Assembly (NCBI RefSeq): GCF_009914755.1
Contig: NC_060935.1
Strand: one strand, 5' to 3'
DNA: 64,000 bases
Source: the human T2T-CHM13v2.0 reference genome, Homo sapiens
The notes beneath the pieces are model-generated. The model made no database searches, was not told where the DNA came from, and saw only the letters and a program-made list of their open reading frames with translations. Position numbers and translations under genes: made by a program. How positions within the stretch are numbered: position 1 is the stretch's first letter; the number at the start of each line of letters is the position of its first letter. Positions 17,257-37,823 of this stretch are shown here, piece after piece.

Positions 17257-17435
17257 TGTATATATATTATATATAATATATGTATATATAATATATATTA
17301 TATATAATATATATGTATGTATAATATATATTATATATAATATATGTATATATAATATATATTATATATAATATATTATATATAATATATATTATATATA
17401 ATATATGTATATATAATATATATTATATATATATA
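17257..17435. repeat. AT-rich minisatellite, ~31-bp unit tatataatatatgtatatataatatatatta
   Basis: Directly visible tandem repeats. Confidence 0.9.
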
Positions 17436-21049: not shown

Positions 21050-22585
21050 TAAATACATGGAATTCTGATAAGTTTAAAATAAAACGTAAAAACATACAGA
21101 CTTAAAGTTAGAACATATTGCTGAGAGGAATTAAAGATGACCTATAGTAAAAAGAGACATGCATTCATATTCATGGATTTTAAGATTCAATATTATTAAA
21201 ATATTGATGCTTCTCAAATTGCTCTGTATATTTAATTCAATAACGATCAATACTATTGTAATTAAAAAAACAAGTATATTCTAAGTTCATTCAAAAGTTT
21301 ATATAGAAATGCAAAAGGACCTGGAATAGATGAAAATTTCAAAATTGGCTAACTTATACTACTTGAATTTATAATAGTTACAATAGTACAGTTTAGCATA
21401 AAGGTAGCTGTAAAGATAAATGATGTTAAATAGAGTTCCAAAATATACATTCATTTGGTCAAATTTTTGACAAATATGCCCATGTAAACTCAATGGTAAA
21501 GTATTGTCTTGTTAACAAATGGTGTTTAAAACAATATTTATCTAGAAAAAAGTATTCACAACCTTTGCTTCATAATATTAACAAAAATTAAGCCAAGATG
21601 GAAACAAATCTTAGTGTAAATTAGATAACTACAAAATTGCTTAAAGAAAATGTAGGAAAAAAGTGTGAGTGTCCTTGAGGTAAGCAACAATGTCTTAGAT
21701 AAGGTAAAAGTAGTACAGCTAATGAGAAAATATTGGTAAATTGGGCTTTATGAAAATCTGTTGTTCTTCAAAATACAACTTTATGAAACTAAAAGGCATT
21801 TTATAGACTGGAGAGAAAATATTTTTAATCCATTTATCTAACAGTGAGTTTTATTCAAAATATTTAAAGAACTCCTACCACTATAGTAAGATGACAAAAC
21901 TGAATTAAAATGAAAAAAAGCACAAAATAAGAAATACAGAAGACCAGTTAACACATGTAAAAATGCTAACCCTCATTAGTCATTAGATAAATCCGTGTTA
22001 AACTCACAATTAGAAACAGCATATACTTCCACTGAAATGGCTAAAATTGAAAAAGAAGGACAATACCAATTGTTGGGAAGGATGTTGAACAACTGGAGGA
22101 ATTATCAGTAGTAGCTAGTAGGAAAGAAAATAATTCATATACTAACCCACAATCCAGTAATTCCACTCTCAGATATATGAGAAATAAAAACATATGCTCA
22201 CAAAACAAATTGTATCCAAATTCTTATAGAATTTTTATCCATAATAGATCTAAACTAGAAAGAAAGCCTAATGTCTACCAAGAGATGAATAAATACATTA
22301 TAATATACCATGTAATAATATTTATAAATTTTTTAAAAAACGGATACATGTGGCAACATGAGTGCTACTCAAAAAATTTATTCTGAGAAGGACAATACAA
22401 AAGATTACATACAGCATAATTCCACACATGAAATTCTAGAATAGTCAAAACTAGTCTATAGTGGTGGAAAGAAGACAATTGGTCATCTTAGGCCAGGATG
22501 TAGCGGATAGACTACAAAGATTATAAGAAAAGTGTGGGAGGGTGATAGAAATATTCTGTATATTGTTTTTGGTGGTGGCTACAGT
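21050..22585 (+). mobile_element. Old L1M (L1ME/MD-like) ORF2 C-terminus and 3' end
   Basis: ttcatggattttaagattcaatattattaaa, ggacaataccaattgttgggaaggatgttgaacaactgg, aaaactagtctatagtggtggaa. Confidence 0.75.
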
Positions 22586-22840
22586 GTCTCAGCACTTGAG
22601 CTTCACATTGGCATCTCTTTGTCTTAGTCATTTGGTACTTCCCATTGTTTAGATATGCTTTACTTACTCTCCTCAGGAGGGCCTTCTGTTTGTCTGCCTG
22701 GAATTCTCTTGATCACCTCCCTCACCCTGCCTTTGGTTGGTTACCTCTTACTCTTCAATTTACTATTTCAGATCAAGTACACTTCTAGAAAGTCTTTCAT
22801 GTCCCCTTGGATTGGGTCGACTACCTGTATTTTACACTTT

Positions 22841-23603
22841 TTTTTTTTTATTTTACAACCAACAATATTTAATATTTCCTCATTGAAGAATAGATGTGAT
22901 AATTAAATCTTTTATAAGGCTTTAAAAAGACATGAAACATAAACCTAATTATACATAAAAGAAAATAATTTTAAACAAGAGCTTATTGTGATGACATTAC
23001 TCATAACTTTTACCTTTAAAACCTTTTCTTGGGTAGCTATTCAAAAGTAAAGACCGCAAATTTTGTTGCTCAGATTTCTTATGTTTTGTTTATTTAAGCT
23101 CTTTAGTTATTGACCAGATGTGTCATTAATTCATTTGGAGCATTACTATTATCAGTAAAATTTGATTTTTTTTTCCCTCAGTCATAGGTAAATCAGCTCC
23201 GCCTGGAATTTCTTTTTTTTTTAATTTATTATTATTTTACTTTAAGTTTTAGGGTACATGTGCACAATGTACAGGTTAGTTACATATGTATACATGTGCC
23301 ATGCTGGTGCGCTGCACCCACTAACTCTTCATCTAGCATTAGGTATATCTCCCAATGCTATCCCTCTCCCCTCCCCCCACCCCACAACAGTCCCCAGAGT
23401 GTGATGTTCCCCTTCCTGTGTCCATGTGTTCTCATTGTTCAATTCCCACCTATGAGTGAGAATATGCGGTATTTGGTTTTTTGTTCTTGCGATAGTTTAC
23501 TGAGAATGATGATTTCCAATTTCATCCATGTCCCCACAAAGGACGTGAACTCAATCATTTTTTATGGCTGCATAGTATTCCATGGTGTATATGTGCCACA
23601 TTT
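22841..23603 (-). mobile_element. L1PA2-type 5'-truncated insertion (L1 23213-23603) plus a ~360-bp 3' transduction (22855-23212) and second poly(A) tail
   Basis: L1 3'UTR ggttagttacatatg...gctggtgcgctgcacccactaactc carries GAG rather than the L1HS ACA/ACG. T tracts at 23213-23222 and 22838-22854. Perfect 55-bp flanking duplication at 22786-22840 and 23604-23658. Confidence 0.93.
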
Positions 23604-24493
23604 TAGAAAGTCTTTCATGTCCCCTTGGATTGGGTCGACTACCTGTATTTTACACTTTCATAGGACCATACAATAAAAGTGCGAATCCTACGAAGTCAGT
23701 GGGTTGACATTAAAAAAGAAACATCACACTCTACTAGGCTTTGAATCACTGAACTGGACGGTGTCCCCAAAGTCCTTTTAGTTCTAAAATGCTACGACTG
23801 CATGCGTACATTGAATTACTCATACTTGATTTTGGTGAGAGATCTACAAGGCAAGAAACCAAATTTCAAAAGAATTACTACAACTCCTTAATATATCTAC
23901 ACTAATGCAAGTATCATATGCAATATTTATTTGTTTCTTCTTGTCATCATTCTTATGTTTCAGAGCAATAATGTCATCTGGAACCTGTGAAGTGTTTGTG
24001 CTAGTGATTTTGTATCAAAGGGAACCAACACAATTGAATTAAGGTTAAAAATTCCTTTTTCCTCAGGTTATTTTCTTAAAGTAATAAAATAGTCTTGGTT
24101 TGGAGCTTGCTATTATATGTACCCAACAAATATTTGCTGTCCCGAAATATTGAAGATGTTAATACACTAATTATATCTTTCATTTTCCCTATTTATAAAA
24201 TAGGAAAATATTACCTATACTATTAGCAGTATATTACCTATATTGTTACTTATGTTACTAAAATATTGTCTACTATTATTAGAAAAATGTTAATTACCTG
24301 ACACAAAAGCATTCAATAAACTGTGATTATGAAAGAATCCAGCAGTAGAGAAAAAAGGTATATATATATATTTTTTGTTTATGGAAGCCTGTTCCCATCT
24401 GCTATCCAATCATTAGGTGCCAGGCACTTTAATCAGTGTGCTTCAGGCTGCCCTGCCTGACCAGGTGCCTGATTATTTAAAATGGAGACACCT

Positions 24494-24920
<427 letters not shown>

Positions 24921-26229
24921 AATGGAGACACCTACCTTTGTAGGAGTCAGAGGTTGTCACAGCTGGGGGACTGCAGAATAGGCCTAGGCAAAACTAAATA
25001 GTTACTACGTTGGGGCTAGAACTCAGCCAGGTTAATACTGTATTAATTATGGTTTTTTAAATGATTAAAAGAATTTTATTTGTGTTTCTGTTTCTCATTT
25101 CACAAATAGACTTACAACCATTGTACATTTATGATCTAACCATATCTCAAGTCATTTTCATTTTAGGATGAAAAGTCCAGAATTATTTACATTTCCTCCT
25201 GGGTCAGTGAAATTTTGAAAGTCCATTACAAAATGTCAAACTTTGGAATGATTATTTCATTTAAAAATGATTTTTATTTATTACCATTAACAAATGTTCT
25301 TTTCGTTACACAACTTATACTGGTTCAGTTTTGAGTGATGCCTTTTTTACAATCAGCTCTCAATCTATAAACTATAAATAATAAATGGAGAAGATCAGGT
25401 TTTCTTCTCCAAACAAAAGAGAACAAAATTATGCATTCATTCTACTTTAACCTGAAAAAGAAATTAAGGTAAGGATTGAAGTAAAAATGCTAACTTGAGA
25501 CTGATTTATTCAGGGGAAGATTGGAGGATTTTAGAGTGGAGGGAGGGAGAAAGAGACAGAGAAAAACAAAGAGGCAGAAACAGAGAAGGTACTTTTATTT
25601 CATGAGTGGGAATGATAAACTCCATCTTTTAGTGGCATTCTATCTATTAAATTTTTTACAGTGCATGCACCCTGTATTGATTAGTGAATCATCAGCCCCT
25701 ACTTTTAGATCCACCTGAAATTCTTGCATTTTATTAATATATTATAGTCATTTGTCATCTGTGAATTCTTGTAAACCCATTCCTCAGGAGAAATTGGCAA
25801 GTAACCTCTATAGGTATATTATAAGATCATCCTACCCAGGCAGAACAAATACCCTAACAGGTGGTTTTAGCTTCCCTACTAACTTTGTTTTTTTGTATAC
25901 TGATGCCTAATGTAAAATAACAATGTTAGATTTGGCTGCAATTTTGGAACTTTAAAAGCAAACCTAAGCATTTCACTTTTCCAGATAAGATGGACAGTGA
26001 TAATTACTATAATCAATACATCAAAATGATTGCTAAGCATTAAAAAAAGTCACTGATCTGGAAGTGTTAGAGAAAATAACTTTCTAAAGTGTGTGAACTG
26101 ATCCAAAAGAATAAACTACTTACAAGCAGAAATAATTCAAACCTTCATCATTCTTAGCTAACCAAACTGAACTTCTGATAGCAGGCTTAAACATCAACAA
26201 TTCATGTATTTTCCCCCAAACCACTTTGT

Positions 26230-37679: not shown

Positions 37680-37755
37680 GAAAAAAAAAAAGAAAAAGAA
37701 AAAAGAAAGAAAGGAAGGAAGGAAGGAAGGAAGGAAGGAAGGAAGAAAGAAAGGA

Positions 37756-37823
<68 letters not shown>

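What the first reader, a model, noticed from the sequence alone, without database searches (positions are those of the whole stretch)
22786..23658. Perfect 55-bp target-site duplication, far longer than usual for L1
Seen: tagaaagtctttcatgtccccttggattgggtcgactacctgtattttacacttt occurs identically at 22786-22840 and 23604-23658, bracketing the L1 and transduction. It retains a CpG and has no mismatches, consistent with a recent event. Up to ~4 terminal T's overlap the tail or L1 end, so the TSD is ~51-55 bp. The inferred nick site CTTT/CA is a variant of the L1 endonuclease TTTT/AA consensus. Established: TPRT TSDs are typically ~7-20 bp. Inference: second-strand cleavage occurred unusually far away, or repair was atypical. 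The long direct repeat could also allow precise excision by recombination.
Basis: partly seen in the sequence, partly recalled or inferred. Interest (0 to 1): 0.7.

Follow-up and report, generated by a model that had tools for sequence, protein, structure and literature searches.

The report
L1 insertion carrying FGL2 gene tail
A short jumping-gene (L1) insertion on chromosome 11 is flanked by an unusually long exact 55-base repeat and carries the last 366 bases of a chromosome 7 gene that is likely FGL2, probably picked up from a parent L1 that is no longer there; it is rare but of a known kind.

Summary
The 55-bp exact repeat is real and unique to this locus. It brackets a 5'-truncated young primate L1 end, a 366-nt non-L1 segment and a poly(A) tail, all on the minus strand. 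The best length is 54 bp plus 1 nt of microhomology (51-55). (1) The 'transduction' is the 3' end of the 3'UTR of a two-exon, 439-codon fibrinogen-domain gene on contig 7 (FGL2), and no L1 sits there. The breakpoint is an endonuclease-like empty site (TTTCT/AA). The likeliest source is an L1 once inserted in that UTR and since lost (about 0.7); an RNA template switch (about 0.17) or nested insertions (about 0.05) are not excluded. (2) The TSD ends exactly at the only pyrimidine4/purine site on the opposite strand within 130 nt, suggesting a second consensus nick (chance 1-11% by motif definition; 0 of 12 control TSDs). The event is not very recent: about 1.5% divergence per copy. TSDs of 40-100 bp and longer are already published. 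Without ape orthologues the mechanism stays inferred.

The parts
22783..22790 (.). TTCTAGAA palindrome at the TSD boundary; on the minus strand of the pre-insertion target it reads TTTCT/AG, an L1-endonuclease-like site, the inferred second nick (22786|22787)
   Evidence: Only pyrimidine4/purine site on that strand within 130 nt of the first nick, at +54
22786..22840 (.). TSD, left copy (3' side of the element); first T and last three T's ambiguous
22841..22849 (-). Terminal poly(A) tail (T-run 22838-22849 is 12 long, including 3 TSD T's; the last 2 T's also match the origin locus)
22848..23213 (-). Last 366 nt of the 3'UTR of the contig-7 fibrinogen-domain gene (FGL2); 356 of 367 aligned columns identical to G000:C7:78444485-78444851
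22868..22873 (-). ATTAAA polyadenylation signal, 18-20 nt before the tail; at the origin it is followed by a U/GU-rich stretch
23214..23222 (-). Internal A9 tract (L1 tail), joined to the UTR segment at the origin's TTTCT/AA site
23223..23604 (-). 5'-truncated young primate L1 3' end, 382 nt, 96-97% identical to genomic relatives; GAG at the diagnostic triplet (L1PA2/3; label recalled, not from a call)
23604..23658 (.). TSD, right copy (5' side of the element); T23604 is microhomology with L1
23655..23661 (+). First-nick/priming site: CTTT/CA, or TTTC/AT with the terminal C not retained

Best explanation
This is an 818-bp insertion made of a truncated L1 end, a copy of the last 366 bases of the FGL2 3'UTR and a poly(A) tail between two identical 55-bp repeats, likely produced in one target-primed reverse-transcription event from a read-through transcript of a source L1 that probably sat in the FGL2 3'UTR and has since been lost. 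Steps: (1, inferred) an L1 inserted in sense orientation at the TTTCT/AA site 366 nt before the gene's distal poly(A) site. (2, inferred) Its transcript ran through its own weak signal and ended at that ATTAAA site. (3, structure shown, chemistry established) ORF2p nicked the chr11 plus strand at CTTT/CA or TTTC/AT, primed on poly(A), copied the UTR segment and 391 nt of L1, and stopped. (4, inferred) The second nick was not made within the usual 20 nt but 54 nt away, at the only endonuclease-consensus site on the opposite strand (TTTCT/AG); fill-in gave the long TSD with 1 nt of microhomology. (5, inferred) The source allele was never fixed in this lineage. Component odds: genuine TPRT TSD 0.93; lost-source transduction 0.7; second nick at the consensus site 0.55.
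For: One TSD pair encloses both parts. The layout L1-A9-unique-signal-A(n) is the textbook transduction layout (an internal poly(A) is described in PMC6425141). The origin breakpoint is TTTCT/AA; 34 of 2908 UTR positions are this consensus-like, about 43-fold better than random and about 2-fold better than a merely T-rich end under rough models. TTCT/a, TTTC/a and TTTT/c all occur as L1 cleavage sites in PMC5223499 tables. The two parts look the same age: 11.6 differences expected, 10 seen, p=0.8. A donor L1 absent from the reference genome is documented (PMC6425141). The second-strand site is the only YYYY/R in 130 nt and falls on the TSD end, while 0 of 12 control TSD ends have one (read). 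ORF2p EN is modelled to reach about 20 nt in cis (PMC7617806), so 54 bp needs another route.
Against: No L1 at the origin: the best hits in 9 kb were 10-18 nt chance matches. No sibling copy carries the UTR segment, 2 of 2 candidates (one search was crowded by Alu hits). The age test is weak: ratio 1.73, CI 0.57-5.79, and a UTR copy twice as old is not rejected (p=0.12). A 5-nt in-register match (TTCT|A) between the UTR breakpoint and the TSD boundary favours nesting; chance is 0.8% at random but 10% given an opposite-strand site. Second-strand cuts generally lack a strong consensus, and the site match is post hoc, with chance 1-4% for strict motifs and 7-11% for loose YYYY/R. The first-nick motif is weak.
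Confidence: 0.6

Rival explanations
1. Template switch in one event. ORF2p began on FGL2 mRNA in trans and copied 366 nt; the T-rich cDNA end (TTTCT) then re-annealed to the poly(A) tail of an L1 RNA and continued. No L1 ever sat on chr7.
For: No L1 at the origin. The segment ends at what looks like the gene's own poly(A) site. No siblings. The T-rich end suits priming on poly(A), where 4 terminal matches suffice and mismatches are tolerated (PMC3649969). ORF2p template jumping is seen in vitro. Same age of both parts.
Against: It does not predict the AA after the breakpoint; the rough likelihood ratio is 2.3 for the lost source. Known chimeras mostly have the cellular RNA 5' of L1 (recalled). 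It needs FGL2 mRNA in germ cells, and no other copy of this UTR was found.
Confidence: 0.17
2. Two nested events. A short FGL2 retrocopy inserted first (TSD up to 58 bp, TTCTA microhomology), creating a TTTCT/AGAAA palindrome. A later L1 cut both strands there and inserted bluntly. The long TSD then belongs to the retrocopy.
For: 4+1 nt in-register match between the UTR breakpoint and the target boundary; the repeat extends to 57 of 58. Short 3' retrocopies with microhomology are common (PMC2831318). 5'-truncated L1s are the class with short TSDs (PMC2912911).
Against: It needs a second insertion at one exact base with no TSD, a very small prior by my estimate. The match has 10% chance once the boundary is an opposite-strand site. 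No age gap was detected.
Confidence: 0.05
3. Same insertion, but the second nick was a pre-existing or host-made nick (for example when nucleotide-excision repair failed to cut nearby), or the TSD was lengthened by strand displacement; the TTTCT/AG match is coincidence. This rival concerns step 4 only.
For: [quoted passage not shown] There is no strong second-cut consensus.
Against: The boundary falls on the single YYYY/R site in 130 nt.
Confidence: 0.4
4. Not a TSD: a pre-existing or later tandem duplication of 55 bp, or an assembly artefact.
For: No outgroup or reads were available to exclude it.
Against: The copies abut the poly(A) tail and the L1 5' break exactly. There is no tandem array at the site. 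Both boundaries are EN-like.
Confidence: 0.04

Closest known systems
L1 insertion by TPRT with TSD (usual 7-20 bp, PMC7617806; median 13, quartiles 10-15, PMC12016303)
   Same: Poly(A) tail, 5' truncation, 1-nt microhomology, degenerate EN site, flanking direct repeat.
   Different: TSD about four times the median; its far end lies on an opposite-strand consensus site.
Long-TSD L1 insertions (PMC5223499: 40, 47, 54 bp and over 100 bp in cultured cells; PMC4398972: over 40 bp and 92 bp, somatic)
   Same: Same size class, with normal tail and cleavage site.
   Different: Those are engineered or somatic; this is an old germline copy. TSD scanners may discard TSDs over 30 bp as likely false (PMC2831318), so such copies may be under-counted.
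Partnered L1 3' transduction with non-reference donor (PMC6425141)
   Same: L1, internal poly(A), unique flank, terminal poly(A), one TSD pair.
   Different: There the donor was found as a polymorphism; here no donor is found, and the flank is a gene's terminal 3'UTR.
Short processed pseudogenes of mRNA 3' ends (PMC2831318)
   Same: About 360 nt (their median 356), ends at a poly(A) site.
   Different: An L1 with its own tail lies between the copy and the TSD.
U6/L1-type chimeric retrocopies (recalled; PMC4476161 seen in a search listing only)
   Same: Two RNA templates within one TSD pair.
   Different: The order is reversed: L1 is 5' and the cellular RNA 3'.

Membership tests
TPRT-made L1 insertion | L1 3' end with poly(A) tail | tested here: met
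   96-97% identical to 29 genomic L1 copies; A9 and terminal tail
TPRT-made L1 insertion | Direct repeat abutting both junctions | tested here: met
TPRT-made L1 insertion | EN-like T-rich priming site | tested here: inconclusive
   CTTT/CA or TTTC/AT, degenerate; similar sites are listed
TPRT-made L1 insertion | Empty allele with one copy of the repeat | not testable with these tools
   The genome has no relatives in the tool
Partnered L1 3' transduction | Unique segment between internal and terminal poly(A), inside one TSD pair, mapping elsewhere | tested here: met
Partnered L1 3' transduction | Source L1 directly upstream of the segment at its origin | tested here: not met
   No L1 in 9 kb of the origin in this one genome; so it is described as working like a transduction and is not filed as a proven one
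Partnered L1 3' transduction | Origin breakpoint looks like an L1 target site | tested here: met
   TTTCT/AA
Processed pseudogene (trans retrocopy) | Ends at an mRNA poly(A) site | tested here: met
   ATTAAA 18-20 nt upstream, 2908 nt after the stop codon; the annotated transcript end was not available
Processed pseudogene (trans retrocopy) | 5' end joined directly to the TSD | tested here: not met
   391 nt of L1 intervene
Processed pseudogene (trans retrocopy) | Intron loss | not testable with these tools
   The segment lies within the last exon
U6/L1-type chimera | Cellular RNA 5' of the L1 part | tested here: not met
   Order is L1 then UTR; no Rfam match in 21500-25500
L1PA2/L1PA3 subfamily | Diagnostic 3'UTR bases and low divergence | tested here: inconclusive
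   GAG triplet and 1.6% from majority; no subfamily library was available, label recalled

The most novel reading that the evidence does not exclude
A germline-fixed reverse-order chimera. ORF2p started on a cellular mRNA (FGL2), jumped from a T-rich cDNA end onto the poly(A) tail of L1 RNA, and closed the insertion between two independent consensus nicks 54 bp apart. Some 'source-less transductions' would then be template switches, and long TSDs a class set by opposite-strand endonuclease sites.
Probability: 0.12. Interest if true: 0.6.

Novelty: new member of a known kind. Interest (0 to 1): 0.32.

Why it matters
It is one natural germline example bearing on an open step of L1 retrotransposition: how the second strand is cut. 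If long TSDs generally end at opposite-strand consensus sites, that separates an in-cis, ruler-like cut (under about 20 nt) from a second, independent nick, and this is testable on existing long-read catalogues. It also preserves a roughly 10-million-year-old copy (age scale recalled) of the FGL2 terminal UTR and may record an extinct L1 allele in that gene. No function or phenotype is indicated: the supplied annotation shows no gene or enhancer over it.

Tried and rejected
Tandem-repeat origin: no array at the TSD. Secondary structure as the cause of the distant nick: four folds, z 0.15 to 1.10, nothing unusual. Structured RNA in the insert: no Rfam match. Sibling insertions or other copies of the UTR: none (2 of 2 candidates); one search scored only 40 of 4523 candidates, mostly Alu, so it is weak. 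An 84-bp 'TSD' at control L010 was dropped: it is 92% identical, lies 1280 nt away without a tail, and both copies continue as parallel copies of an older LTR-like repeat. Control bookkeeping: 59 loci, 54 distinct, 28 with the 5' end out of view, 26 in view including the finding. Of the 25 controls: 12 clean, 8 no call, L010 rejected, L057 a paralogue of L055, L031 and L063 doubtful, and L025 called 16 but 7. A larger control set was not obtained; some searches returned places only. Internal priming at the 9-nt target/RNA match was rejected because the product retains ACAC and a T12 run. No PDB structure of the gene itself was found, only fibrinogen-domain relatives. Papers not held: Szak 2002 and 2003, Gilbert 2005, Flasch 2019; nothing is taken from them.

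Full report
Observation. The 55-mer is identical at 22786-22840 and 23604-23658, 818 bp apart, with no exact extension. It is the longest non-simple exact repeat in the window and occurs only here in the genome (2 of 2 candidates). It is not part of a tandem array.

Anatomy, minus strand, 5' to 3': TSD; 382 nt of L1 3' end; A9; 366 nt of unique sequence with ATTAAA 18-20 nt before its end; poly(A); TSD. The L1 part is 96-97% identical to its best genomic relatives and differs from the majority of 29 of them at 6 of 380 sites; relatives differ from that majority by a median 1.3%. The GAG triplet points to L1PA2/3, roughly 8-12 million years; both label and age scale are recalled. All 29 relatives read CATTTT|C at the break, so T23604 is shared by L1 and target. 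Three T's are shared with the tail. The TSD is 51-55 bp, best 54 plus 1 nt of microhomology.

How unusual. In 25 control L1 copies with both ends in view, 12 clean TSDs measured 9-20 bp (dropped rows are listed under Tried and rejected). That sample only bounds the frequency below about 22%. Literature, passages seen: 7-20 nt usual (PMC7617806); median 13, quartiles 10-15 (PMC12016303); over 30 bp rarely seen and filtered out (PMC2831318). Long TSDs are nevertheless known: 40, 47, 54 bp and many over 100 bp in NER-deficient cells, and up to 10% over 100 bp in HeLa (PMC5223499); over 40 bp and 92 bp in neurons (PMC4398972). A broader TSD range at 5'-truncated insertions is noted in PMC11702581. 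A perfect 55-mer does not imply youth: at 1.3-1.6% per copy it survives with probability 0.17-0.24.

The 'transduction'. The unique segment has one other match, G000:C7:78444485-78444851, with 356 of 367 columns identical. No L1 lies beside it or within the 9 kb fetched. Upstream on the same strand are two ORFs, the second a Fibrinogen_C domain (E 3e-97). One GT-AG join among several possible (GTATGT donor, 2195-nt intron) gives 439 codons, matching the description of FGL2: 7q11.23, two exons, 439 aa (PMC5356913, one passage). The segment is the last 366 nt of a 2908-nt stretch after the stop, ending after ATTAAA and before a U/GU-rich tract. The gene name is thus inferred, with high confidence. 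At the origin the breakpoint reads GAATTTCT/AAGG, an endonuclease-like empty site; 34 of 2908 UTR positions are as consensus-like, and TTCT/a is a recorded cleavage site.

Three models explain this. A lost source L1 in the UTR predicts the layout, the site including its AA, and equal ages; 11.6 differences are expected and 10 are seen (p=0.8), though the interval is wide (ratio 1.73, CI 0.57-5.79). A donor absent from the reference is documented (PMC6425141, passages). A template switch from FGL2 mRNA to an L1 poly(A) tail predicts a T-rich end and equal ages and needs no missing element; a rough per-site likelihood favours the lost source only 2.3-fold, and my preference rests partly on priors that are my own estimate. 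Nested insertion is suggested by a TTCT|A match between the UTR breakpoint and the TSD boundary (0.8% at random, 1020 of 127800 positions), but this rises to 10% (168 of 1655) once the boundary is an opposite-strand site, and it needs a blunt second hit at one base. Because the source L1 is absent, I do not file this as a proven transduction.

Why the TSD is long. On the strand that receives the second nick, the only pyrimidine4/purine site within 130 nt of the first nick is TTTCT/AG at +54, exactly the TSD end, inside a TTCTAGAA palindrome. Chance, allowing 2-3 registers, is 1-2% for the strict motif set, 3-4% for YYYY/AR and 7-11% for any YYYY/R. None of the 12 control TSD ends has such a site (read). 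Structural modelling puts the in-cis EN about 20 nt from the first nick, and only one of three mapped top-strand cuts resembled the consensus; another study also finds no strong second-cut consensus (PMC12809410, passages). A 54-bp stagger therefore suggests an independent consensus nick, but an unrelated distal nick, as proposed, remains nearly as likely. The first site is weak (CTTT/CA, or TTTC/AT with C not retained); imperfect T-tracts can prime, although primer trimming was a minority outcome (PMC3649969, passages). DNA folding shows nothing unusual.

Unexplained. The nine bases TATTTTACA near the primer end (22828-22836 and 23646-23654) equal the first templated bases of the UTR end (22849-22857). 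4 of 3354 TTT-ending sites in the window reach this, the site itself included. It is post hoc, and the product shows priming on poly(A).

Prior description. In searches, none of the 20 and 15 listed papers mentions FGL2 (of 52 and 978 matching); one search returned none and search 45 two papers, seen as listing only for PMC13009371. PMC2912911 was read in parts 1-2 of 5. I read no supplementary tables; transduction and short-pseudogene catalogues could list this locus.

Verdict. A real, old L1 insertion with a rare but known long TSD, and a likely source-less capture of the FGL2 terminal UTR. New member of a known kind; interest 0.32.

Noticed in passing
window 24480-24933: An Alu (about 24496-24780, + strand) flanked by an AATGGAGACACCT duplication; its A-tail has become a roughly 140-bp AT-rich minisatellite (24781-24921).
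   Followed up: partly
window 22828-22836, 23646-23654 and 22849-22857: 9-nt identity between the target's primer end and the start of the copied UTR end; 4 of 3354 comparable sites reach it. Unexplained.
   Followed up: partly
window 23056 and 23201 versus L002 1705 and 1851: The chr11 copy keeps two CpGs that are CpA at the origin, so it likely preserves ancestral FGL2 UTR bases.
   Followed up: no
L063 (G000:C5:62335403-62338525): Control L1 whose best 11-bp TSD candidate lies 465 nt past the L1 end after an A-rich tract; possibly another 3' transduction.
   Followed up: no
L055 and L057 (contigs 22 and 14): The same 395-nt L1 with the same junctions on two contigs, likely a shared duplicated segment.
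   Followed up: no
L010 143-230 and 2325-2412: L1 inserted into one of two nearby copies of an older LTR-like repeat, mimicking an 84-bp TSD; a trap for long-TSD scans.
   Followed up: yes
window 17260-17430 and 37711-37821: AT-rich repeat with period about 61-64 and long AAGG/GAAA microsatellites.
   Followed up: no
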